Shown piece after piece: positions 10,470 through 25,148 of a DNA stretch of 64,000 nt. A program made the translations under genes and the position numbers. The first letter of the stretch is position 1. Each line of letters starts with the position of its first letter. This DNA is from an uncultured bacterium (GTDB lineage Bacteria > Bacteroidota > Ignavibacteria > OLB7): the NCBI GenBank assembly GCA_966128725.1, contig CBHYLN010000003.1, forward strand, positions 17,177 through 81,176, read 5' to 3'. The notes beneath the pieces were generated by a model. The model was not told the DNA's origin. It was given only the letters and a program-made list of their open reading frames with translations, and searched no databases.

Positions 10470-13400
10470 ATGCGACGAATTTACGTTCCGCTTCTGGCGG
10501 TGCTCGGCGCGCTGTTGTTTACAGCGCTGCCTACGTATGCAAACCTTGCCGATTACGGCTTCTCGGTGGGGCAAGGTGGTTGGTTGAAATCGGAAACCAC
10601 AACAATCCTCAAAGCCGGCAGCAACGACGATGCCTCGGCTGTGAACGATATAGGATTCACGTTCTATTTCGACGGGCAGCCGTACACTCAGTTCTCCGTC
10701 AGCTCGAACGGCCTGATCGGCCTTGGTTCGCAGCAGGTTACGCCATGTTGGCTGAACCAGCTCACCACACCGAGCGGCGAGTGCGACGGCACCGGCGGGT
10801 ATGACTTCACGCTGGCGAATGTGCCGCACATCGCGCCGTTCTGGGACGATCTCCGCATCCCCGACAGCCGCAACGACGGCTTCGACAGCGACATCTCCTA
10901 CGGCCTGATCGGCGAAGCGCCGAACCGGATCCTGGTAATCAACTTCCGCGACATCGAGACCGATTACTTCAATTTCAACTACAGCAGTTTCCAGGTTCGC
11001 CTGTACGAGACATCGAACACAATCGAGTTCTTCTACAGCTATCTGAACCCGAGCTATTCCGGCAACGGTGCCTCGATTGGCCTGGCGATCAGCGATCGCA
11101 ACTACCTGAGCGTGTCGCCCGCCTTCGAAGGCGCGTATGTTAACGGCCAGGAGGTCAACGACTCGTATTACCCATCCGAGCCCTCGATCCCCGAGGGAAC
11201 GATGTACACCTTCCGCCCGTGCCAGATTACCTTCACCGGCAACGTTGACGAAGGCGGCACCAGCAGCATGGCCAACGGTGACGTGTTATTGGTTGGCAAG
11301 CAGGCGATGGTGTATTCGTACGCATCGTACATACCGTTTTCGATGACGATGGACGGCGCGTGCAGCTCGCGCGTGGTTACCGCATCGATTGTTGGGCCCG
11401 ACGCTTCGGATTATTCCTTCTCGCCGGAGAACTTCACCCTGTATGCCGGCAACGAACCCACGCAGGCATATGTTGGGTTCCACCCCACCGGCATCGGCGT
11501 GCGCCACGCCACGCTGGAACTGGTTGACGATCACGGCACCACGTATTCGTTCGAGCTTGCGGCCGAGGGCCTGCCGCGAATCATCTATATCGGCGATGTG
11601 AATCAGGGTGGTACCGACGGCATGGCCAGCGGCGACGTCCTGATGACCAACGTGCATGTGCATCGCAACGAAAGCGGCACGTTCACACCGTTCGCACTGC
11701 AGAACATCTCCGAGGAAAAGGAATCACAGGCTGCGGCCGTTTCCTACTGGATCAAGGGCATCAGCGGTGGCCAGTACTCCATCGATCCGCCGAACACGTC
11801 GATCGGCAGCGGCGACAGCCACACGCCCACGATCACATTTGCCCCAACCACCGTTGGCCCGGTGCTTGACTCGCTGTTTGTTACCGCCGACGGCCAGACC
11901 CGTGCGTTTGCGCTGCTGGCCACCGGCGACGGGGTCGGCGCCGAGTTCATCGCCGGCAACGAGAAGCTGCATGATTCATCGACCCTGTTCGTGAACTCGT
12001 ACAGCTGCTCGGGTTCCGGACCGATCACGATCGCCGTTCGCGTGCGCAACATTGGCAATCAGCCGATGAACATCACCGGCGCGGACTTCTACATCACCGA
12101 CTCGGTGTACCAGCAGGGCTCGCCACGGTACCCGCTGCTGTGGGGTAACCAGGAATCACCGGAACGCTCCAACGACTATATCATCACCGAGCATCCCCCG
12201 GTATTGCCGATCACCGGCGCGCAGGCCTCGTTCCCGATCACCGTGGAAACCGGCACAACCAAGGTGATCTACTTTACCTTCATCAGCCAGCAGCCGGGCA
12301 AGCGTTTCGCGCGCGCGTTCGTGCATACCGATGCGGAGAACTTCAGCTCGCATGGGATGTACGGGCAAAGCATCGAAGGCTTGCTGACGCTGGATCTGTT
12401 CGGTCGTGGCATTGGCGGAAACCTTTCGGACAACGCGGCGGGCGGTGTGCCCAAGAGCATCCTTATGCCGGCAACCAAGGTTGGCCAGTCGACCGATGCA
12501 ACCGTGAATCTCTTCAACGTTGGCACGTGCGACCTTCGCATCGCGATGAACTCCTTCCGATTCACCGCGGACGATGCCGATGAGTACACGGTTACATCAC
12601 TGCCCCTTGGCACGCTTGACCCAGCCACGAACGATCTGGTGCTGGCCCCGGGCCAGAGCACGTCGTTCCAGGTTCGGTTCACGCCGTCGCAGCTTGGCTC
12701 GCGCCGCGCCACAATGCACCTGCAGACCAACGATTCGTCGTACATCATCCCGGGCATCACCGAGCGCGGTGGCTACTACCTGGATTTCTACGGCAACGTC
12801 GGCAACGGCATCATGGTTAACGGCATCAATTTCGGCACCGTGCTGGCAACAGGCAGCAGTGTGGGCACGCTCGACGCCACGGCCGCGATTGTCAACGTGA
12901 CGAACGCACCGGTAACCATCACCAAGCTGGAGATCACCGGCGCCGACGCGGCCAGCTTTACGCCGGGCACGGGTGGCGCATGGACCACACCGCTGGTAAT
13001 CGCCCCGAACACGGTACACACCCTGCCGGTGCACTTCGCGCCGACATCGAACACCACCGGCCTGCGTACCGCGGAACTGGTGGCAACAACCGACGACGGC
13101 AACGTGATCAACGGCACGCTGAGCGGCATGGTGGGCACGCGCACGCTTACCGCAAGCGCAACGGATCTGAGCTTCGCGGTGGGTGTTGGGCGCACGCAGC
13201 GCCGCTCGGTAACGATCGCCAATAACGGCACGCTTCCGGTTCAGATCACGTCGGTGACGGTGGAAGGGACCGACAAGGGCAGCTACACGGTGCTTCCGCT
13301 GGAGCGCACCACGCTGATCCCAGGCCAAAGCGAGTTGGTGGAGCTTGCCTTCCGCCCAACGGCAACGGGTGCGACAACCGCCACGCTGGTGATAACAAGC

Positions 13401-13829
13401 AACTCCACCGACGGCGCCATCAACGTGACGCTGAACGGCATGGCCCGCACGGCTCGCCCGGTGGATGATCCCTCGGCCACGACCGGTGCCATCACCGGAC
13501 GCGCCGACGAGCTTGCGCATTCGGCAAGCGACTTGGTCAGTGGTCTGGCATCCGAAACAACGCTGAACGGTGTGGCGTTGCAGGCGAGCGTGCCGAACCC
13601 GGTGCGTGATGTGGCCACAATCGGCTACACGGTGCCAAGCCGTGGGAACGTGCTGATCGAGCTGTTCGACGCAACCGGCGCACTGGTGCGCGTGGTGGAA
13701 TCCGGAGCCCGTGAGGCCGGTTCGTACTCCGTGCAGGTCGATGTGCGGAATCTGGCATCGGGCGTGTATCATTACCGGCTTACGGCCAACGGCGTGCGCC
13801 TTGCACGCACGATGAACGTGGTGCGGTAG
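10470..13829 (+). CDS. Large secreted cell-surface protein with a T9SS (Por) C-terminal sorting domain.
   Basis: Signal peptide (MRRIYVPLLAVLGALLFTALPTYA), Ig-like/beta-sandwich-rich body, and a C-terminal ~80-aa Por_Secre_tail (…VPNPVRDVATIGYTVPSRGNVLIELFDATGALVRVV…YHYRLTANG…). AGGAGA RBS 9 nt upstream of the ATG. Confidence 0.8.
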   Translation: MRRIYVPLLAVLGALLFTALPTYANLADYGFSVGQGGWLKSETTTILKAGSNDDASAVNDIGFTFYFDGQPYTQFSVSSNGLIGLGSQQVTPCWLNQLTTPSGECDGTGGYDFTLANVPHIAPFWDDLRIPDSRNDGFDSDISYGLIGEAPNRILVINFRDIETDYFNFNYSSFQVRLYETSNTIEFFYSYLNPSYSGNGASIGLAISDRNYLSVSPAFEGAYVNGQEVNDSYYPSEPSIPEGTMYTFRPCQITFTGNVDEGGTSSMANGDVLLVGKQAMVYSYASYIPFSMTMDGACSSRVVTASIVGPDASDYSFSPENFTLYAGNEPTQAYVGFHPTGIGVRHATLELVDDHGTTYSFELAAEGLPRIIYIGDVNQGGTDGMASGDVLMTNVHVHRNESGTFTPFALQNISEEKESQAAAVSYWIKGISGGQYSIDPPNTSIGSGDSHTPTITFAPTTVGPVLDSLFVTADGQTRAFALLATGDGVGAEFIAGNEKLHDSSTLFVNSYSCSGSGPITIAVRVRNIGNQPMNITGADFYITDSVYQQGSPRYPLLWGNQESPERSNDYIITEHPPVLPITGAQASFPITVETGTTKVIYFTFISQQPGKRFARAFVHTDAENFSSHGMYGQSIEGLLTLDLFGRGIGGNLSDNAAGGVPKSILMPATKVGQSTDATVNLFNVGTCDLRIAMNSFRFTADDADEYTVTSLPLGTLDPATNDLVLAPGQSTSFQVRFTPSQLGSRRATMHLQTNDSSYIIPGITERGGYYLDFYGNVGNGIMVNGINFGTVLATGSSVGTLDATAAIVNVTNAPVTITKLEITGADAASFTPGTGGAWTTPLVIAPNTVHTLPVHFAPTSNTTGLRTAELVATTDDGNVINGTLSGMVGTRTLTASATDLSFAVGVGRTQRRSVTIANNGTLPVQITSVTVEGTDKGSYTVLPLERTTLIPGQSELVELAFRPTATGATTATLVITSNSTDGAINVTLNGMARTARPVDDPSATTGAITGRADELAHSASDLVSGLASETTLNGVALQASVPNPVRDVATIGYTVPSRGNVLIELFDATGALVRVVESGAREAGSYSVQVDVRNLASGVYHYRLTANGVRLARTMNVVR

Positions 13830-18169: not shown

Positions 18170-21100
18170 TTACTTCACCACTGTCATGCTGCGGGTTTCA
18201 ACCAGCGTGCCGGCACGCAGCGTGTAGTAGTAGGTGCCGCTTGGCAGATTGTTGGTGTCGAAGAACACGGCATGTTCGCCGGCGCCAAGACGCTCATTAT
18301 CCATCAGGCGGGTTACCACTCGACCGCTTGCATCGGTCACCACCAGGCTTACCGACTCCTGCGACATTGGCAGGCTGAAGCCGATCGTTGCCGAGTGCGT
18401 GGCCGGGTTCGGGAAGCTCTGCCCGAGCATCGCGGTTGCGCCGGTGGCGCCATCATCGCCGCGAACCGAGGAGAGCGGGTTTGCCAGGGTGATCTCACCG
18501 TTTGTGAGAACCTGACCATCGGCGTCGTACGTGGTGAATCCAAGCGTCACCGTGTTGGCTTCCACGCCGGCCATCGTGATGTAGATCGGTCCGTGCTCCT
18601 CGCCCGGTGCCAGCGAAACCGCTGCATCGCCGATCTCCTCGCCCACGAAGCGTGTCTGCCCGTTGCGGCCCAGCTTCACGATCACCTGCTTGTCGCCCGC
18701 GGTAGGTCCTACGCCGATGATGCGCGCGCCGCTCTGGGTACCGGGCTCGCTGATCCCGAAGGCAGCCACCGGCAGGCCCGACGTGTTGGCATTGCGCAAG
18801 TGAATTGCGTAGGTCCGAACATTCGTCAGGTTGGTGTTGGCACCCGTCACCACATCACCGCCCAGCTCGTTTGCACGGCGGAACGTCACAAGCGCTTCCT
18901 CGCTCAGCGTGTCCGGCATACCCGTCTCCGGATTGGTTACCGTGTAGGTGAGCACCAGGCGGTGCCGCGCCGTACGGCGGCTTCCAAGGCCGTTGTACTT
19001 CAGGGCAAACGTCACGCTGCTGTTCGGCTGCGCATCAAACGCTGCCAGCATCTCGCCGTTGGCGAAGAAGAGATCGTAGCCCGCAACCGATGCCGAGCCG
19101 TCCTCGATGGTAAGACCCGAGTCAGCAGGTGTCATCGTCAGGCCGATGTAGTGCACCGTGCCCAGCTCCTGCGGCGGCACCGGGAAGTTGATCGCCAGGT
19201 AGGCACTGTCGGGGCCAACCAATGCTCCGGAAAGCGTTGGGCCATCGGCGCTCTGCAGGGTCTGCTCACCCTGGCGCTTGCTGGTACCAGGCGTCCAGAT
19301 GTTGACATCGTCCCACTTGATCAGGCGGAAGCGCAGACGCGAGAAGCAGAGCACGGTGTCACACGTCACGCAGTTCTTATCAGTGAAACGGAAGCGGATG
19401 CAGTAGCGAAGAACATCGAACCAACGGTTCGGAGCCATCGGCTGGAACTGGAGGTTCAGGTTGAACGGAACACCCATCCAGTTCACGGGCACCATCGGGC
19501 CCCACGTGATATCCTGCGGAACCGGATACCCTGGCGCCGGCGGAACCGTGCCCGGCATACCGTTGATGGTACCGCTGGTGAAGCTGCCCCATGCGGGCGC
19601 GCCGTTTACCGTCACGCTGACAAGTGTTGCCGAGGCCGCGCCAATCGGCGTTGCGCCGCTTCCGGCCGCCCAGAGGATGCCGCCAACATTGCCGGCGCCA
19701 TTGGCCGAGGCCGAGTTATGAAGCTGAGCGAATCGCTTCAGGAAATCCTTGCAGCAATCGATCGGCTTCGGGCAATCGGGAAGCTTGATCTGGAACGAAT
19801 CGCGGCAGCAATGCACGCGCTGCTTGTCGCAGATGGAGGCGTAGAGCGTGTATCCGCCGGGCACCGCGCCAGGACCACTGATGACCACGCATTGCATCGG
19901 CGACATCGTACCAGGAGCCACACCGCTTGGATACACGATCGTCATCGGCGAGAACGACATTCCCGGCGGAGGCACAATCGTGAAGTAATACACCGGGAAG
20001 CTGGACTGGTTAAGGAAGTTGAAGCACCACGAGTAGGCCGGCTGTCCGTTCGTCAGTGAGATGCACTTGACAAAGTTCTCCTTGATCTGGAAGCATCCGG
20101 TTGGGCACTCCGGCAGGCGCACCTTGATGGTGTCGGTGCAGCAACGCTGCTCACCCGTTGGCAGCACACAGCACGTACGCACGGCAATCGAGACAACCGT
20201 GCCTGGCACCGCGGCCGGGCCGGAGATCGAGAACACCACCTGCTGGTACGTGTTCGCAACGAGCGTAAACGTGCCGGGCGTAACCGTCACACCAACCGGC
20301 AACACGCTGACAACCGTGGCCGTCTGTGTCTGGCAGCCGGCAAGATGGCTGCGCAGCCACGTGGTCCACTGATATCCCATCTGGTTGCTGCCGGGGATCG
20401 GCTTGCACTCGATGTGGCTATCCTGCGACATGTCGATGCAGGTATCCTTCTGGCAGTTGCCGAAATCACGACCGGAAACGATCTGCCCGGCGGTCATCGC
20501 CACCGTATAGGTGAGGCTTGCAGGGTACGTCTGGGTCCATCCCGGCTGGTTGACTTCGTTCACGATGTACGAGCCAACAGGAACGTTGAAGAAGTAGTAG
20601 TTGCCGAGAACGTCGGTCACGGTGGTCCATCCGTTGGAAAGCTGAATCGTCCAGCCGGCCAATCCCGGCTCGTTGGCGTCCTTCTTTCCGTCGCAGTTGA
20701 GATCACGGAACTTCTGGCCGGTGATCACGCCGGTGGAATCGCAGCAGTTGGGCTTCACCAGACCAACACCGGGAGCGGTTACGTAACCGGCGATATCGAG
20801 GCCCATCGCAACGCTGCCGATGTTGTGCAGACGCACGCGGATGCAGTTGCGGCCGGGCTTGAAGAATTGCGGGTTGTTGGTGGCCAGGTGCGTTGGAACG
20901 GTAAAGCCACCCGTTGTTGAACCGATATAGTTACCGTTGAGGAACACGGCCGCGCTGTCGTCGGCAAGGATGTCGAACGCCATGCTCGGCTTCTGCGCAT
21001 TCGGGCCAAGACAGAAACAGTACTCGAACTCGTACAGGCCGTTCAGGATGTTGGTTGACGATGGATACGAGCTGATCCACTGGCTGTTGGTAAACGGGAA

Positions 21101-21505
21101 CGCCCACGCGGGATGCTTCAGGATCACACCGGCCGGCCGGGGCTCGGTAGTGCCGGGATCGGGATCGCTGATCACGCGCCACCAGGGCGTCATGCCGCCA
21201 ATCGGGAAAACGGTATTCGTGTTGTAGTTGAAGCCCGTGTTGATCTTTACCGTGTCGGTAAGGCAGGGGTCGTTCTGCGCGTGCAGGTTGGCCGAAGGAA
21301 TGGCCAACCCGAGCATCAGAAGAATCAGGGTAATCGCACCAACAACAAAACCCGGCACTCGACGGCCGGCGGTTGCAGTGCAATTGATCGCATCGTTGTA
21401 CCCAACGATGGTGTTGATCGGCTCATTCGCGAGCCGATTGGTAGCGCCAGTTGGCGCGTTGCCGGTCGTTCGCCGGCTCGTTGTTCTGGATGTTGCGGTC
21501 ATCAT
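18170..21505 (-). CDS. Large secreted protein with a T9SS (Por) C-terminal sorting domain.
   Basis: 1111 aa. N-terminal TM/signal region and a C-terminal Por_Secre_tail (…FPNPATHSATIGFSLPMSQESVSLVVTDASGRVVTRL…GTYYYTLRAG…). Confidence 0.8.
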   Translation of the reverse strand: MMTATSRTTSRRTTGNAPTGATNRLANEPINTIVGYNDAINCTATAGRRVPGFVVGAITLILLMLGLAIPSANLHAQNDPCLTDTVKINTGFNYNTNTVFPIGGMTPWWRVISDPDPGTTEPRPAGVILKHPAWAFPFTNSQWISSYPSSTNILNGLYEFEYCFCLGPNAQKPSMAFDILADDSAAVFLNGNYIGSTTGGFTVPTHLATNNPQFFKPGRNCIRVRLHNIGSVAMGLDIAGYVTAPGVGLVKPNCCDSTGVITGQKFRDLNCDGKKDANEPGLAGWTIQLSNGWTTVTDVLGNYYFFNVPVGSYIVNEVNQPGWTQTYPASLTYTVAMTAGQIVSGRDFGNCQKDTCIDMSQDSHIECKPIPGSNQMGYQWTTWLRSHLAGCQTQTATVVSVLPVGVTVTPGTFTLVANTYQQVVFSISGPAAVPGTVVSIAVRTCCVLPTGEQRCCTDTIKVRLPECPTGCFQIKENFVKCISLTNGQPAYSWCFNFLNQSSFPVYYFTIVPPPGMSFSPMTIVYPSGVAPGTMSPMQCVVISGPGAVPGGYTLYASICDKQRVHCCRDSFQIKLPDCPKPIDCCKDFLKRFAQLHNSASANGAGNVGGILWAAGSGATPIGAASATLVSVTVNGAPAWGSFTSGTINGMPGTVPPAPGYPVPQDITWGPMVPVNWMGVPFNLNLQFQPMAPNRWFDVLRYCIRFRFTDKNCVTCDTVLCFSRLRFRLIKWDDVNIWTPGTSKRQGEQTLQSADGPTLSGALVGPDSAYLAINFPVPPQELGTVHYIGLTMTPADSGLTIEDGSASVAGYDLFFANGEMLAAFDAQPNSSVTFALKYNGLGSRRTARHRLVLTYTVTNPETGMPDTLSEEALVTFRRANELGGDVVTGANTNLTNVRTYAIHLRNANTSGLPVAAFGISEPGTQSGARIIGVGPTAGDKQVIVKLGRNGQTRFVGEEIGDAAVSLAPGEEHGPIYITMAGVEANTVTLGFTTYDADGQVLTNGEITLANPLSSVRGDDGATGATAMLGQSFPNPATHSATIGFSLPMSQESVSLVVTDASGRVVTRLMDNERLGAGEHAVFFDTNNLPSGTYYYTLRAGTLVETRSMTVVK

Positions 21506-22083: not shown

Positions 22084-22124
22084 AAAAAAGAAGCCCCGCT
22101 CGGACACATGTGCCGTGCGGGACT
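22084..22124 (-). terminator. Rho-independent terminator for metH.
   Basis: On the minus strand: GTCCCGCACGGCACATGTGTCCGAGCGGGGC hairpin followed by TTCTTTTTT, about 80 nt past the metH stop. Confidence 0.55.
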
Positions 22125-22226
22125 TTTCTTTGAAGCGGAAATTCAGTTGTCGGTTGGGGCCAGCCCACGGCAACCGCGGCTATCCACACAGTGCCTGGCC
22201 GGCGTTACCACGCCGCCACGGCTATA

Positions 22227-24563
22227 TCACACTCGTACGTTGAAGTACTTGGCCGCCGGATGATGCACAACAATGGCGCTTGTGGATTGCTCGGGGTCGA
22301 GCATGAACTCCTCGGACAGCGAGATGCCGATCCGCTCCGGACGAAGCATCTCGAACATCTTCGTCTGGTCCTCCAGATTCGGGCACGCAGGATATCCAAA
22401 GGAGTACCGGCTACCACGATATCCCTGCGAGAACAGGCGACGGATGTCGGCCGCGTCGTCGCCGGCAATCCCCAACTCCACACGGATGGATTTGTGCCAG
22501 TACTCGGCCAGGGCCTCGGCGGTTTCCACCGACAAGCCATGGAAGTACAGATAATCCGAGTAGTTGTTCGCACGGAACAGCTCGCCCGCATATTCGCCGG
22601 CGCGTTTGCCCATGGTCACGATCTGCAGGGCCACAACGTCGTAGGCGCCGCTTTCAACCGGACGGAAGAAGTCGCTGATGCAGAGATGGCGGCCGTGCGA
22701 CTGCCGTGGGAACTCGTAGCGGATCCACTCCTCCAGCCCGGAATCATCCATCGGCACAACGGGCCACTCGCCAACAAGCGCGTCGCCGGCAAGCCCCTTC
22801 GGCCGATACACGATCAGCGTGTTATAGTCGGCACGGCAGGGATAATAGCCGTAGATCACCTTCGGTTCCAGCAGCCGCTCGCGCTTGGCGCGCAGCTTCA
22901 TTTCCTCCAGTTTCGGATGCACCACGTCCTCAAGCTCGCGGCGATATTCCTCGGCCGTCCGCTTCCCCTTCTTTACCTGCCACTGCCCCCGGATCAACGC
23001 AACCTCGTTGATGTACTCGAACACCTTCTCCAGGTGGATGTTATCCACCACACGCGACCCGTAGAACGGGGCCGTGGGTACCGGTACTTCGCGGTCCACA
23101 TCGGAGGTCACGCGCAGGCGATGCACGCCACGATCGGTCTGGAAATCCTGAGCACTTACCGGGAAATCCGCATCCTGACTTTGCTCCTCCTGCAACTGTA
23201 CCGACACCGCATACGCCGATACCCCGGTTGCATCGGCAAACGCGGAGGCCGGCTTCGAGATATACAGCGCCGGCGGGCGGCCGTAGGTATCGATGCAGAA
23301 ATCGATCTTGTCGTTGGCGATCACCGCGCGCGGATCGTCCACGGGCACATGATCGAACCCAAGCGTCCGATAGAACCGCCCAAGCTCGACATCGTCCGGA
23401 TCGCAGGTAACGTAGACTTCGGCCTCGCGATTGATCGCACGCGCCATCGAGCGCATGGTCCGGACCAGATCGAACCCGGCTCCGGCCGTCCATTGCTCCG
23501 GCAGCATCGTGATGTTGGTAAGCTCGTAGACGCCTTCGCCCATCGGCATCACACGCCCACCGCCCACCACGTCCTCGTGCAGCTCGGCCACCACCAGCTC
23601 GGCGATGTCGGCGCGCTCCAGATCCTCCCGAACCACATTCATCAGCACGGCCAGAGCATCAAGCTCGTCGTCGGCCGCGGGGCGCACACGCACCGCGCCA
23701 CGTTCGGATACCGAGCGCCGGGCATTGGCGTAGGCGTCGTTGGAAGCACGTTCCTCGGTGGACAGTTCAGCGGCATCCCCGGCCCCGATGTCGCCATCGG
23801 CTTCCAGCGGCATGTCCAGCGGATGGCCGCCAACGATGCGCTCCATGTAACGCAGTCCGGCAAACGCGTCGTTGGCATATGCCACGGTCGGGCCGTAGAT
23901 CTCGCGCAGATCCTGCTCCACGTACCGCCGCGTAAGCGCCGCGCCGCCCAGGATCACCGGCACTTCGATGCCGCGCCCCTTCATCAACTGAAGGTTCTCC
24001 TTCATGATGAGCGTGCTCTTGACCAGCAGGCCGCTCATGCCGATTGCGTGCGCGTGATGTTCGCGCGCGGCCTCCAGCATCGTTTCCACCGGCACCTTGA
24101 TCCCCAGATTCACCACCCGGTACCCGTTGTTGGTCAGGATGATATCCACCAGGTTCTTGCCGATATCATGCACGTCGCCCTTCACGGTGGCGAGCACCAT
24201 GGTGCCCTTCGCGGAGCTGTCGGACCGCTCCATGAACTGTTCCAGATACGCCACGGCCTTCTTCATGGTCTCGGCCGATTGCAGCACGAACGGGAGCTGC
24301 ATCTGGCCCGACCCGAACAGATCGCCAACCACCTTCATGCCGTCCAGCAGAATGGTGTTGATGATCACCAACGGCTCGTAGCCCTTCAGGGCCTCATCCA
24401 GATCAACATCGATGCCGATCTGATCGCCGTCGATAATGCGCTGCTTCAGCCGCTCCTCAACCGTGAGAGTGGCCTTATCCACCGTCTGCCGTTCGCTCTT
24501 CTTGTCCGCATAGTAGGCCATCAGCTCCACCAGCGGATCGTATACACACTTGCGTTCTACCAT
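22227..24563 (-). CDS. metH: Methionine synthase, B12-binding (cap plus Rossmann) and AdoMet-activation domains only. It lacks the Hcy- and methyl-THF-binding barrels.
   Basis: B12-cap and DxHxxG motif (ATVKGDVHDIGKN…GMSGLL). C-terminal reactivation domain (…FPRQ…LCISDFF…VTMG…HGLSVE…YRGSRYSFGYPACPNLEDQ…DPEQSTSAIVVHHPAAKYF). The ORF begins directly with the cap domain, and upstream is a divergent intergenic region. Confidence 0.85.
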   Translation of the reverse strand: MVERKCVYDPLVELMAYYADKKSERQTVDKATLTVEERLKQRIIDGDQIGIDVDLDEALKGYEPLVIINTILLDGMKVVGDLFGSGQMQLPFVLQSAETMKKAVAYLEQFMERSDSSAKGTMVLATVKGDVHDIGKNLVDIILTNNGYRVVNLGIKVPVETMLEAAREHHAHAIGMSGLLVKSTLIMKENLQLMKGRGIEVPVILGGAALTRRYVEQDLREIYGPTVAYANDAFAGLRYMERIVGGHPLDMPLEADGDIGAGDAAELSTEERASNDAYANARRSVSERGAVRVRPAADDELDALAVLMNVVREDLERADIAELVVAELHEDVVGGGRVMPMGEGVYELTNITMLPEQWTAGAGFDLVRTMRSMARAINREAEVYVTCDPDDVELGRFYRTLGFDHVPVDDPRAVIANDKIDFCIDTYGRPPALYISKPASAFADATGVSAYAVSVQLQEEQSQDADFPVSAQDFQTDRGVHRLRVTSDVDREVPVPTAPFYGSRVVDNIHLEKVFEYINEVALIRGQWQVKKGKRTAEEYRRELEDVVHPKLEEMKLRAKRERLLEPKVIYGYYPCRADYNTLIVYRPKGLAGDALVGEWPVVPMDDSGLEEWIRYEFPRQSHGRHLCISDFFRPVESGAYDVVALQIVTMGKRAGEYAGELFRANNYSDYLYFHGLSVETAEALAEYWHKSIRVELGIAGDDAADIRRLFSQGYRGSRYSFGYPACPNLEDQTKMFEMLRPERIGISLSEEFMLDPEQSTSAIVVHHPAAKYFNVRV

Positions 24564-24655
24564 AGGGCACCAAAGTTACGCATCCAATGCGTCACGCACC
24601 GTATCACTTCGCGAACGCCCCGGCAATCCCACCAGGCACCGGCACGGTGGCAATC

Positions 24656-24682
24656 AAAAAGCACCCTTTTGGGTACTTTTTT
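24656..24682. other. Second copy of the AAAAAG(C/T)ACCC-N4-GGGTACTTTTTT palindromic element, in the divergent metH / 24747 intergenic region.
   Basis: aaaaagcacccttttgggtactttttt has 10 of 11 bp complementary arms and a TTTT loop, flanked by an A-run and a T-run. Compare 3083-3109. Confidence 0.35.
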
Positions 24683-24746
24683 GTTTGCCTCAAACGTTGT
24701 CAGTTTGAACAATGAAACGGGCTCCCCCCGGTTTCAACGTATTCGG

Positions 24747-25148
24747 ATGGATAACATGACCGACGCAGAAATCGCAATGAAGGAACGCAGGGCTCGGGCC
24801 GCTGGCAGCATACAGGCAGGCGTGCTCAGAGCACACAGGAACAGGCCCTGGTGGCTCAGCACCCTGTTGAGCGGGTTATCGCTTGCAACGGTTGTTACGT
24901 GGGTGTTTGTCGCGGGAACGTGGCACGGCGGTGTGAACGACAAGCTGGATCACCTGGTTACCGCGCAGCAACTGCGCGATGCCGGCACCGACCCACAGAG
25001 CAGGGTAATGGAGGAACGCTTCAAGCGCGTTGAGGCACGCAACGAATCAACACGCGAGGATATCAACGCACTTCGCGAGGACGTGCGCGCTGTCAACGGC
25101 AAACTTGATCAACTGCTGGCCAGAGCGGGGGTCGCACACGAGCGCTGA
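24747..25148 (+). CDS. Hypothetical membrane-anchored coiled-coil protein.
   Basis: 133 aa with one TM segment (WWLSTLLSGLSLATVVTWVFVAG) and C-terminal heptad-like repeats. ATG at 24747. This is the only protein-like part of the long antisense ORF 22191..25148. Confidence 0.55.
   Translation: MDNMTDAEIAMKERRARAAGSIQAGVLRAHRNRPWWLSTLLSGLSLATVVTWVFVAGTWHGGVNDKLDHLVTAQQLRDAGTDPQSRVMEERFKRVEARNESTREDINALREDVRAVNGKLDQLLARAGVAHER

What the first reader, a model, noticed from the sequence alone, without database searches (positions are those of the whole stretch)
22227..24563. Truncated or split methionine synthase with a non-canonical insert
The ORF starts directly at the B12-cap domain. It carries cap, Rossmann B12-binding and AdoMet reactivation domains, but has no homocysteine- or methyltetrahydrofolate-binding barrels. 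Divergent intergenic DNA lies upstream, so the catalytic half must be encoded elsewhere or be absent. A ~230-aa stretch between the B12 and activation domains (roughly aa 250-480, …RFYRTLGFDHV…) has no counterpart in canonical MetH and carries a GNAT-like R-x-x-G-F motif. A short hairpin (ACGCAT-TGG-ATGCGT) sits 20 nt 5' of the start codon.
Basis: partly seen in the sequence, partly recalled or inferred. Interest (0 to 1): 0.55.

Follow-up and report, generated by a model that had tools for sequence, protein, structure and literature searches.

The report
Split methionine synthase with nested GNAT domain
This gene encodes only the vitamin-B12-carrying, self-repairing half of methionine synthase, and an acetyltransferase-like (GNAT) domain has been spliced into one of its flexible hinges; this rare design is confined to uncultured Kapaibacteria, and what the extra domain does is not known.

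Summary
On the minus strand (22227-24563) a 778-aa ORF encodes Cap, B12-binding and AdoMet-activation domains of MetH. It has no homocysteine or folate barrel, and none is encoded anywhere in the 64-kb window. An in-frame TAA 15 nt upstream closes the frame, so this is a split gene, not a truncation. Two-part MetH is already known, and Ignavibacteria-type relatives carry the N-half gene directly upstream.

About 239 residues sit where Thermus MetH has a 23-residue disordered Cob:Act linker. Residues 289-442 form a complete GNAT fold (Pfam above cut-off; AlphaFold pLDDT 94-97; only GNAT hits in PDB), tethered by two low-confidence segments. It is under purifying selection (omega 0.04-0.28). It occurs in about 53 protein clusters and 11 Kapaibacteria-type MAGs, which form one clade. 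It has no close stand-alone relative among 1.84 billion representatives.

The window's subclade keeps the acetyl-CoA signatures; a third of the family has lost them. Related proteins carry a DinB-like domain at the same site. I found no riboswitch.

The GNAT function is unresolved, and the partner N-half was not located in this lineage. Verdict: a new variant of a known kind, of moderate interest.

The parts
22227..24563 (-). metH C-half gene (778 aa + stop): Cap - Cob - [tether - GNAT - tether] - Act
24240..24461 (-). B12-binding cap domain (aa 35-108). The preceding aa 1-34 correspond to the end of the Fol region and the Fol:Cap linker of fused MetH.
   Evidence: Pfam PF02607, 80 bits; aligns to P0108 from residue 607
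23853..24203 (-). Cobalamin-binding Rossmann domain (aa 121-237) with GDVHDIG, MSGLL and GGA motifs
   Evidence: Pfam PF02310, 70 bits; motifs invariant in alignments A1 and A4
23700..23825 (-). Tether L1 (aa 247-288): poorly conserved, low-confidence
   Evidence: 4-50% identity among relatives; pLDDT < 50 for aa 256-288
23238..23699 (-). Nested GNAT-fold domain (aa 289-442). Motif A is PEQWTAGAG (aa 355-363); motif B is D391...RFYRTLGF (aa 396-403).
   Evidence: Pfam PF00583 25.5 bits > 20.7; profile hits only GNAT structures; AF2 pLDDT 94-98; Foldseek top hit 2r8v, E 3e-9
23088..23237 (-). Tether L2 (aa 443-492). It includes the LQEEQSQDADFP motif shared with insert-less and DinB-insert relatives, plus a beta-hairpin leading into Act.
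22230..23087 (-). AdoMet-binding reactivation (Act) domain (aa 493-778) with the RYSFGYPACP motif
   Evidence: Pfam PF02965, 120 bits; aligns to 8ssc_A 869-1149
24571..24578 (-). TAACTTTG, a match to the Bacteroidota -7 promoter consensus TAnnTTTG, ending 7 nt before the ATG. Its first three bases are the in-frame TAA stop.
   Evidence: Same motif at -14/-15 in L001, L008, L013 and near-variants in other relatives; only 5 matches in the whole window on both strands. The consensus is from my own knowledge of Bacteroidetes promoters.
24578..24592 (-). Its last base is the first base of the promoter box and of the TAA stop.
   Evidence: Read; appears in the MFE fold; not conserved
22085..22135 (-). 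Intrinsic-terminator-like hairpin plus UUCUUUUUU, about 100 nt after the stop. The gene appears monocistronic.
   Evidence: strand folding: -27.2 kcal/mol, z -4.19, 0 of 200 shuffles as stable

Best explanation
The gene encodes the cobalamin-carrier and reactivation subunit (Cap-Cob-Act) of a two-polypeptide, B12-dependent methionine synthase in a Kapaibacteria-type bacterium (Bacteroidota).

Inferred mechanism: the Cob domain shuttles its cobalamin to a separately encoded Hcy+Fol subunit for the two catalytic methyl transfers. It docks on its own Act domain for AdoMet-dependent reductive remethylation, as in fused MetH. The break from the N-half lies at the Fol:Cap boundary.

The second mobile hinge, the Cob:Act linker (Linker IV), has acquired a complete GNAT-fold domain. 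That domain hangs on two flexible tethers like an extra bead on the string.

I consider the GNAT domain an accessory module, not part of the methyl-transfer chemistry. In the window's subclade it most likely still binds (acyl-)CoA. Its family-wide conserved role is more likely ligand sensing, regulation or docking than obligatory acetyl transfer.

Shown: domain content, the split, the fold, the insertion site, selection and distribution. Inferred: the trans partner, CoA binding and the regulatory role.
For: MetH identity:
- Cap, Cob and Act domains score 70-120 bits each.
- TIGR02082 matches model positions 611-861 plus the Act region.
- 60-66% identity to the C-parts of fused MetH and of adjacent-split MetH.
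- DxHxxG, SxL, GG and RxxxGY-type motifs are invariant.
- omega is 0.04-0.16.

Split, not truncated:
- An in-frame stop lies 15 nt upstream and the neighbouring gene is divergent.
- A 100%-identical protein occurs on an independent ENA contig.
- The start MxE(R/K)KCxYDPL recurs in 11 GTDB species genomes.
- In relatives a 615-aa PF02574+PF00809 gene ends where the C-half gene begins (L003), and several other loci show the same adjacent split.

GNAT domain:
- establish the fold.
- The site is Linker IV, which is disordered in the full-length Thermus structure (PMC10567725).
- The tethers have pLDDT < 50 and the full-length pTM is 0.48.

The insert is functional rather than junk:
- omega is 0.04-0.28.
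- It is retained through a monophyletic clade down to about 25-30% insert identity.

Accessory or regulatory rather than obligatorily catalytic:
- 17 of 54 members replace the motif-A G/A with L/V/M/S (13 L, 2 V, 1 M, 1 S), and 17 of 54 replace the motif-B Tyr with W/F/L. E356, Q357, G334, L366 and F403 stay (near-)invariant.
- Adjacent-split and fused relatives work without any insert.
Against: - No N-half gene was located in this genome or in any insert-bearing MAG. It is absent from the window and from all available +/-10 kb flanks. A different methyl-transfer partner, or an orphan protein, cannot be excluded.
- In the window's own subclade the G-x-G loop, D391 and Y398 are intact, so genuine acetyltransferase activity is quite possible.
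- No ligand, substrate or interaction was tested.
- AlphaFold gives no confident placement of the GNAT domain relative to Cob or Act.
Confidence: 0.6

Rival explanations
1. Bifunctional enzyme. The nested GNAT is an active acetyl-CoA-dependent N-acetyltransferase. Its substrate could be an amino acid such as methionine or homocysteine, or a lysine or N-terminus of MetH or its partner. This would couple acetylation to methionine synthesis.
For: - The fold is complete and confident.
- The closest structures are amino-acid N-acetyltransferase (NAGS/ArgA) GNAT domains, and there are weak NCBIfam hits to amino-acid N-acetyltransferases.
- The window subclade keeps P-x-x-x-x-x-G-x-G, D391 and Y398 (37 of 54 sequences).
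- Purifying selection is as strong as on the MetH domains in the closest pair (omega 0.04).
Against: - A third of the family has lost the G/A and Tyr signatures yet keeps the domain.
- The R/Q position of motif A is Trp.
- No stand-alone relative is closer than 53 bits, so no substrate can be transferred by homology.
- Identity to NAGS is only 16-18%.
Confidence: 0.25
2. Thiol-cofactor module. The Cob:Act linker of these split enzymes hosts interchangeable domains that bind a low-molecular-weight thiol: GNAT for CoA, DinB-like for bacillithiol. These would serve cobalamin handling, for example reductive reactivation, protection of cob(I)/cob(II)alamin, or processing and loading of the cofactor.
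For: - An unrelated DinB_2/DUF1706/MDMPI_N domain sits at the same linker site in other split C-halves, including a Kapaibacterium MAG.
- These DinB inserts are homologous to each other and keep a His ... HxxxH triad.
- DinB-family enzymes include bacillithiol and mycothiol transferases (PMC5815605).
- Bacillithiol-pathway genes were reported in all but one of the Chlorobi/Ignavibacteriae genomes examined (PMC6282198).
- Thiol (Co-S) chemistry is used for B12 loading onto human MetH (10.1101/2023.07.25.550549).
Against: - The idea is circumstantial: two enzyme folds sharing one permissive site need not share a function.
- GNATs bind acetyl-CoA for acyl transfer, not CoA as a reductant.
- No contact with the cobalamin face was predicted.
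- The basal GNAT subclades have degenerate CoA-loop motifs.
Confidence: 0.08
3. Neutral passenger. A GNAT gene fragment landed in a linker that tolerates insertions and persists without function.
For: - Linker IV is disordered and variable. The region corresponding to window aa 247-495 is 39-113 aa long among insert-less relatives.
- The insert evolves faster than the MetH domains.
- AlphaFold shows no fixed contacts (pTM 0.48).
Against: - omega is 0.04-0.28, far below 1, whereas tether L1 reaches 0.2-1.2.
- The domain is kept intact throughout a deep clade and has several invariant residues.
- There is a parallel acquisition of DinB at the same site.
Confidence: 0.05
4. Artefact or pseudogene: a 5'-truncated or mis-assembled metH with chimeric filler sequence.
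For: The gene lacks half of MetH, and neighbouring genes are unrelated to methionine metabolism.
Against: - The architecture and start are identical in many independent assemblies.
- The frame is intact and under purifying selection.
- There is a promoter-like box and a strong terminator.
- The GNAT domain folds confidently.
Confidence: 0.02

Closest known systems
C-terminal half of fused MetH (Thermus filiformis 8SSC/8SSD; E. coli 651-1227 fragment 1K7Y/3BUL)
   Same: Cap, Cob and Act domains in the same order. Window aa 4-253 and 493-776 align to 8ssc_A with E 9e-153. The His-ligand and AdoMet-binding motifs are kept.
   Different: It is a separate polypeptide with no Hcy or Fol barrel. About 239 residues, including a GNAT fold, replace the roughly 23-residue Linker IV.
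Two-part split MetH (recognised by GapMind, e.g. Sphingomonas koreensis; PMC7857596) and the adjacent-split forms found here in Ignavibacteria/Chlorobi-type MAGs (L003, L023, L024, L030, L046, L048, L051, L053)
   Same: N-half (Hcy+Fol, about 615 aa) and C-half (Cap-Cob-Act, about 570-640 aa) are separate genes. The break point is the same as in this gene.
   Different: Here the two genes are unlinked, and the C-half carries the nested GNAT domain. I did not compare the break point of the Sphingomonas enzyme.
Three-part split MetH of Phaeobacter inhibens (10.1101/192971)
   Same: MetH functions are distributed over separate polypeptides, with a stand-alone corrinoid protein.
   Different: That system, as described in the paper, has separate Hcy and pterin proteins and a corrinoid protein annotated MtbC-like (Cap + B12-binding domains). 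Here the Act domain is retained.
GNAT superfamily: the N-acetylglutamate synthase GNAT domain (2R8V, 5YO2) and small uncharacterised GNATs (3FNC)
   Same: Same fold (Foldseek E 3e-9, prob 1.0). Motif A G-x-G and motif B D...FY..GF are present in the window protein.
   Different: Only 16-18% identity. The motif-A R/Q position is Trp. The domain is nested inside another enzyme's linker. It has no stand-alone close relative. The catalytic signatures are lost in a third of the family.
Split MetH C-halves with a DinB-like insert (P0054, P0066, P0085, P0089; L044, Ca. Kapaibacterium sp. LS1_sbin.25)
   Same: Same host protein, same insertion site in the Cob:Act linker, and a similar size of about 150 aa.
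   Different: The inserted fold is unrelated: a four-helix DinB bundle with a His triad. These proteins are scattered in the tree rather than forming one clade.

Membership tests
Full-length cobalamin-dependent methionine synthase MetH (TIGR02082 equivalog) | Homocysteine-binding barrel (PF02574) in the same polypeptide | tested here: not met
   No Pfam hit. No tblastn match anywhere in the window. The frame is closed by a TAA 15 nt upstream.
Full-length cobalamin-dependent methionine synthase MetH (TIGR02082 equivalog) | Methyltetrahydrofolate (pterin)-binding barrel (PF00809) in the same polypeptide | tested here: not met
Full-length cobalamin-dependent methionine synthase MetH (TIGR02082 equivalog) | Score at or above the curated equivalog cut-off | tested here: not met
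   574.6 bits against a cut-off of 1010.85
Full-length cobalamin-dependent methionine synthase MetH (TIGR02082 equivalog) | Cap + Cob (DxHxxG...SxL...GG) + Act (RxxxGY) domains | tested here: met
   PF02607, PF02310 and PF02965 all above cut-off. GDVHDIG, MSGLL, GGA and RYSFGYPACP are invariant in A1 and A4.
Two-part split MetH, C-terminal (Cap-Cob-Act) subunit | Polypeptide begins at the Fol:Cap boundary and is orthologous to C-halves encoded next to an N-half gene | tested here: met
   Window aa 3-4 align to P0108 residue 607-609. About 62-66% identity to the adjacent-split loci with full-length matches (L003, L023, L024, L030, L046, L048, L051).
Two-part split MetH, C-terminal (Cap-Cob-Act) subunit | A separate Hcy+Fol subunit gene in the same genome | not testable with these tools
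   Not in the 64-kb window nor in the flanks of any insert-bearing locus. Whole MAGs could not be searched.
Two-part split MetH, C-terminal (Cap-Cob-Act) subunit | Methionine synthase activity when combined with the N-half | not testable with these tools
   Needs complementation or an enzyme assay.
GNAT (Gcn5-related N-acetyltransferase) superfamily | GNAT alpha/beta fold | tested here: met
   AF2 pLDDT 89 (core 96-98). Of 1,061 Foldseek PDB matches, 434 have E <= 0.001, and all 50 listed are GNAT-fold proteins; the top hit is 2r8v at 3.4e-9. Nearly all hits to the family profile in PDB are GNATs; the best is 3fnc at 4e-5.
GNAT (Gcn5-related N-acetyltransferase) superfamily | Pfam Acetyltransf_1 gathering score | tested here: met
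   25.5 bits against 20.7. PF00583, PF13508 or PF13673 is also precomputed for most close homologues.
GNAT (Gcn5-related N-acetyltransferase) superfamily | Motif A pyrophosphate loop Q/R-x-x-G-x-G/A | tested here: inconclusive
   The window has W-T-A-G-A-G: the G-x-G is kept, but R/Q is replaced by W. Family-wide, G361 is present in 51/54 and position 363 is G/A in 37/54, with L/V/M/S in 17/54.
GNAT (Gcn5-related N-acetyltransferase) superfamily | Acetyl-CoA binding and acyl transfer | not testable with these tools
   Biochemical.
Stand-alone corrinoid proteins of methyltransferase systems (MtaC/MtbC/MtgC, TIGR02370) | Cap + Cob only, scoring above the family cut-offs | tested here: not met
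   134 bits against 215.3 for TIGR02370; all others are also below cut-off. The protein has a MetH-specific Act domain.
Riboswitch-controlled met/B12 gene (cobalamin or SAM riboswitch leader) | Rfam covariance-model match in the 5' region | tested here: not met
   No family reaches its gathering score in the window. In 24450-24900 only chance-level hits to unrelated families appear (E 0.28-5.8).

The most novel reading that the evidence does not exclude
In Kapaibacteria and neighbouring Bacteroidota lineages, the Cob:Act hinge of split MetH may be a dedicated slot for exchangeable cofactor-binding modules. GNAT would bind CoA or acyl-CoA, and DinB-like domains a bacillithiol-type thiol. These modules would take part in cobalamin redox repair, protection or loading. 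That would be a built-in, thiol-based counterpart of the accessory proteins (flavodoxin/MSR, CblC/MMADHC) that other organisms supply in trans.
Probability: 0.08. Interest if true: 0.75.

Novelty: new variant of a known kind. Interest (0 to 1): 0.42.

Why it matters
MetH is a textbook example of an enzyme that works by large domain rearrangements, and its two mobile linkers are thought to orchestrate them (PMC10567725).

- This lineage has cut the chain near one mobile linker (Fol:Cap) and inserted a whole folded domain into the other (Cob:Act). The Cap, Cob and Act domains nevertheless remain under strong purifying selection.
- That makes it a natural experiment on how much the 'beads on a string' design tolerates. 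It also offers a possible handle for regulating or repairing a B12 enzyme.
- An unrelated DinB-like domain occupies the same site in sister proteins, which suggests the position is functionally exploited rather than accidental.
- Practically, NCBI names one member just 'GNAT family N-acetyltransferase'. Such naming can hide the B12-dependent methionine synthase in metabolic reconstructions of these MAGs.

Tried and rejected
1. Upstream in-frame extension or frameshifted barrels: rejected. There is a TAA 15 nt upstream and a divergent ORF, and tblastn with full-length MetH finds nothing in the window.
2. B12 or SAM riboswitch, or any other Rfam family, in the leader: none.
3. It is 6 bp, expected by chance, and not conserved in ten relatives. 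It overlaps a conserved TAnnTTTG box that probably places the transcription start at or next to the ATG, in which case the hairpin would not be in the mRNA.
4. An operon partner: none. Neighbours are a T9SS-sorted surface protein, an AddA-like helicase and PBP1. The rest of the window is housekeeping.
5. An N-half adjacent in any insert-bearing relative: none within the available flanks of up to 10 kb in L001-L002, L007-L017, L058 and L059.
6. Finding the lineage's N-half by protein search: not attempted. All available N-half queries are about equally distant from this lineage, and only the best 120 hits are listed, so the search would almost certainly have been wasted.
7. Foldseek against AFDB50: the library was unavailable.
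8. A stand-alone ancestor of the GNAT insert: none closer than 53 bits among 1.84 billion representatives.
9. The sigma-70 promoter and terminator consensus scan found nothing relevant. The two terminator-like hairpins were seen by folding instead.
10. Literature on a GNAT insertion in MetH: nothing found.
Full report
**What is there.** The ORF reported at 22227-24563 is real but lies on the minus strand (778 aa, ATG start). A 985-aa plus-strand ORF largely overlaps it. Over the metH-C region I treat that ORF as a shadow frame of this 61% G+C DNA, because all domain and homologue evidence lies on the minus strand.

Pfam finds four domains:
- B12-binding_2 (cap), aa 35-108
- B12-binding, aa 121-237
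- Acetyltransf_1 (GNAT), aa 318-403, at 25.5 bits (cut-off 20.7)
- Met_synt_B12, aa 538-776

NCBIfam's MetH equivalog TIGR02082 matches only its C-terminal part (model positions 611-861 plus the activation region). It scores 574.6 bits, below the 1010.85 cut-off. There is no S-methyl_trans or Pterin_bind domain. tblastn with two full-length MetH proteins finds no Hcy/Fol half anywhere in the 64 kb.

**Not a truncation.**
- An in-frame TAA (24576-24578) lies five codons before the ATG. A 183-bp intergenic region then leads to a divergent 133-aa ORF at 24747-25148.
- A 100%-identical protein occurs on an independent ENA contig. About 53 clusters of 720-850 aa share the whole architecture.
- Eleven species-representative MAGs carry the same gene with the same start, MxE(R/K)KCxYDPL. 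They are labelled Candidatus Kapaibacterium, Kapaibacteriota, 'Chlorobiota' or 'Bacteroidota', and two are labelled Alphaproteobacteria.
- Synteny with the AddA-like helicase, PBP1 and a T9SS-sorted SdrD_B protein is conserved in the closest relatives.
- T9SS sorting domains and the NCBI lineage of Kapaibacterium place the window in the Bacteroidota.

[quoted passage not shown] Among the loci fetched here I found three arrangements:
- Fused MetH, with open frames of 1160-1240 aa, mostly in MAGs labelled Chitinophagaceae/Chitinophagales or Bacteroidota.
- Adjacent split. For example, in L003 a 615-aa PF02574+PF00809 gene ends at the base where a 580-aa Cap-Cob-Act gene starts. L023, L024, L030, L046, L048, L051 and L053 are similar.
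- Unlinked split, in Kapabacteria-type MAGs and some others.

Every insert-bearing locus is of the unlinked kind, including the basal subclades (L058, L059). The C-half begins where P0108, a fused MetH, reaches residue 607. That is at the Fol:Cap boundary.

The partner N-half of this lineage was not found. The tools gave no way to search whole MAGs. Its existence is inferred from strong purifying selection on Cap, Cob and Act (omega 0.04-0.16) and from the invariant cobalamin- and AdoMet-binding motifs.

**The insert.** Window aa 4-253 and 493-776 align to positions 596-845 and 869-1149 of the Thermus filiformis full-length structure sequence 8ssc_A (E 9e-153). So 239 residues stand where that enzyme has 23. 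This is Linker IV (Cob:Act), one of the two linkers too mobile to be modelled in the crystal structure (PMC10567725).

- A profile of the insert from 33 homologues hits almost only GNAT structures in the PDB; the best is 3fnc at E 4e-5.
- AlphaFold2 on that alignment gives pLDDT 89, with 96-98 across the core.
- Foldseek returns 434 matches at E <= 0.001. All 50 listed are GNAT-fold proteins, led by the GNAT domain of N-acetylglutamate synthase (2r8v, E 3.4e-9).
- In the full-length model, the GNAT core (aa 289-442) and the MetH domains are confident. Residues 256-288 and 443-454 have pLDDT < 50, and pTM is only 0.48.

The picture is an extra bead on two flexible tethers.

**Is the GNAT functional?**
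- It evolves faster than the MetH domains. At 70-75% MetH identity it falls to 25-40%.
- It is nevertheless under purifying selection: omega is 0.04 and 0.18 in the two closest pairs and 0.16-0.28 at about 76-79% identity. It reaches 0.58 only in the most diverged pair, L013-L014. Tether L1 runs higher, at 0.2-1.2.
- In a rough neighbour-joining tree of the MetH parts, all GNAT-bearing proteins form one clade, which implies a single old insertion.
- Among 1.84 billion cluster representatives, the only strong hit to the insert profile is the family itself (268 bits). The next best are generic small GNATs at 53 bits or less.
- The window's subclade has PEQWTAGAG, which keeps the G-x-G of motif A with Trp at the R/Q position. 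It also keeps D391 and Y398 of motif B.
- In 17 of 54 members, the second Gly/Ala is instead L/V/M/S (13 L, 2 V, 1 M, 1 S), and in 17 of 54 the Tyr is W/F/L. E356, Q357, G334, L366 and F403 are (near-)invariant.

I therefore think (acyl-)CoA binding is likely in this protein (roughly even odds or better). Acetyl transfer is not the function conserved across the family. A ligand-sensing, regulatory or docking role fits better, but none was tested.

**A parallel insert.** Other split C-halves carry a DinB_2/DUF1706/MDMPI_N domain at the same position: P0054, P0066, P0085, P0089 and L044 from Ca. Kapaibacterium sp. LS1_sbin.25. L044 scores 49 bits over aa 272-405. These DinB inserts are homologous to each other (25-41% identity). 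They keep a His ... HxxxH triad and mostly a WLPDC cysteine. They are scattered in the tree.

Both inserts lie N-terminal to a linker motif (…L.L..EQ..DADFP…) that insert-less Kapabacteria proteins also have. DinB-family enzymes include bacillithiol transferases (PMC5815605). Bacillithiol-pathway genes were reported in all but one of the Chlorobi/Ignavibacteriae genomes examined (PMC6282198). This motivates the speculative thiol-cofactor reading. I give it low probability.

**Regulatory claims.**
- No Rfam family reaches threshold in the window. The leader gives only chance-level hits to unrelated families.
- The hairpin ACGCAT-TGG-ATGCGT is present at 24578-24592, 14 nt from the ATG. It is the size expected by chance, and upstream regions are not conserved.
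- What is conserved is TAACTTTG (24571-24578). This matches the Bacteroidetes -7 promoter consensus TAnnTTTG (my own knowledge) and ends 7 nt before the ATG.
- The same motif sits at -14/-15 in L001, L008 and L013, and close variants occur in most other relatives. The whole window has only five matches on both strands. This suggests a leaderless or nearly leaderless mRNA with no room for a riboswitch.
- A strong hairpin plus U-run about 100 nt after the stop (-27.2 kcal/mol, z -4.2) indicates a monocistronic gene.

**Verdict.** The split is a known kind. The nested GNAT in the Cob:Act hinge is, as far as my literature searches show, undescribed. Annotation pipelines do detect it:
- IMG: 'methionine synthase I/N-acetylglutamate synthase-like GNAT'.
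- NCBI: 'GNAT family N-acetyltransferase'.

It is a new variant of a known kind, rare and lineage-restricted, with an unresolved accessory function. Interest is moderate.

Noticed in passing
L044:10001-12250 (Ca. Kapaibacterium sp. LS1_sbin.25); also proteins P0054, P0066, P0085, P0089: Split MetH C-halves carry a DinB_2/DUF1706/MDMPI_N domain at the same Cob:Act linker site as the GNAT. These inserts are homologous to each other (25-41% identity). They keep a His...HxxxH triad and mostly a WLPDC cysteine. They are scattered in the tree rather than forming one clade.
   Followed up: partly
window 24571-24578 (- strand): TAACTTTG (the Bacteroidota -7 box TAnnTTTG) ends 7 nt before the metH-C start codon. 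The same motif lies at -14/-15 in L001, L008 and L013, with near-variants in other relatives. There are only 5 matches in the whole window. This suggests a leaderless or near-leaderless transcript.
   Followed up: partly
window 24656-24680: A 10-bp hairpin, AAAAGUACCC-AAAA-GGGUGCUUUU, flanked by T-runs on both strands. It looks like a bidirectional intrinsic terminator, yet it sits in the divergent intergenic region between metH-C and the 133-aa ORF. It may insulate metH-C from read-through, but this is unexplained.
   Followed up: no
window 24747-25148 (+): A divergent 133-aa ORF with one predicted transmembrane stretch and a coiled-coil-like C-terminus. It has no Pfam hit, and the closest relative L001 has a different gene at this position.
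   Followed up: no
window 22191-25148 (+): A 985-aa open frame runs antisense to metH-C. It is a long shadow ORF in GC-rich DNA that a naive ORF caller would prefer by length. Its 3' end is the real 133-aa gene.
   Followed up: yes
loci L003-L057: Within one protein family, the Bacteroidota-group MAGs show fused MetH, adjacent-split MetH (stop/start overlap) and unlinked-split MetH. The region corresponding to window aa 247-495 (Cob:Act linker) varies from 39 to 113 aa among insert-less members.
   Followed up: partly
L012 and L017 (record titles): Two MAGs carrying the Kapaibacteria-type gene (76-78% identity, same architecture) are titled 'uncultured Alphaproteobacteria bacterium'. This is probably a mislabelled taxonomy. 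L017 also has a frameshift that splits the gene.
   Followed up: no
window 10470-13829 (+) and 18170-21505 (-): Two proteins of about 1100 aa with Ig-like/SdrD_B repeats and C-terminal Por_Secre_tail (T9SS) sorting domains. They support a Bacteroidota-group origin.
   Followed up: no
L013:5795-12334: The reading frame stays open for 2179 codons upstream through the metH-C gene of this MAG. No N-half similarity was found there, so this is probably a chance open frame in GC-rich DNA.
   Followed up: no
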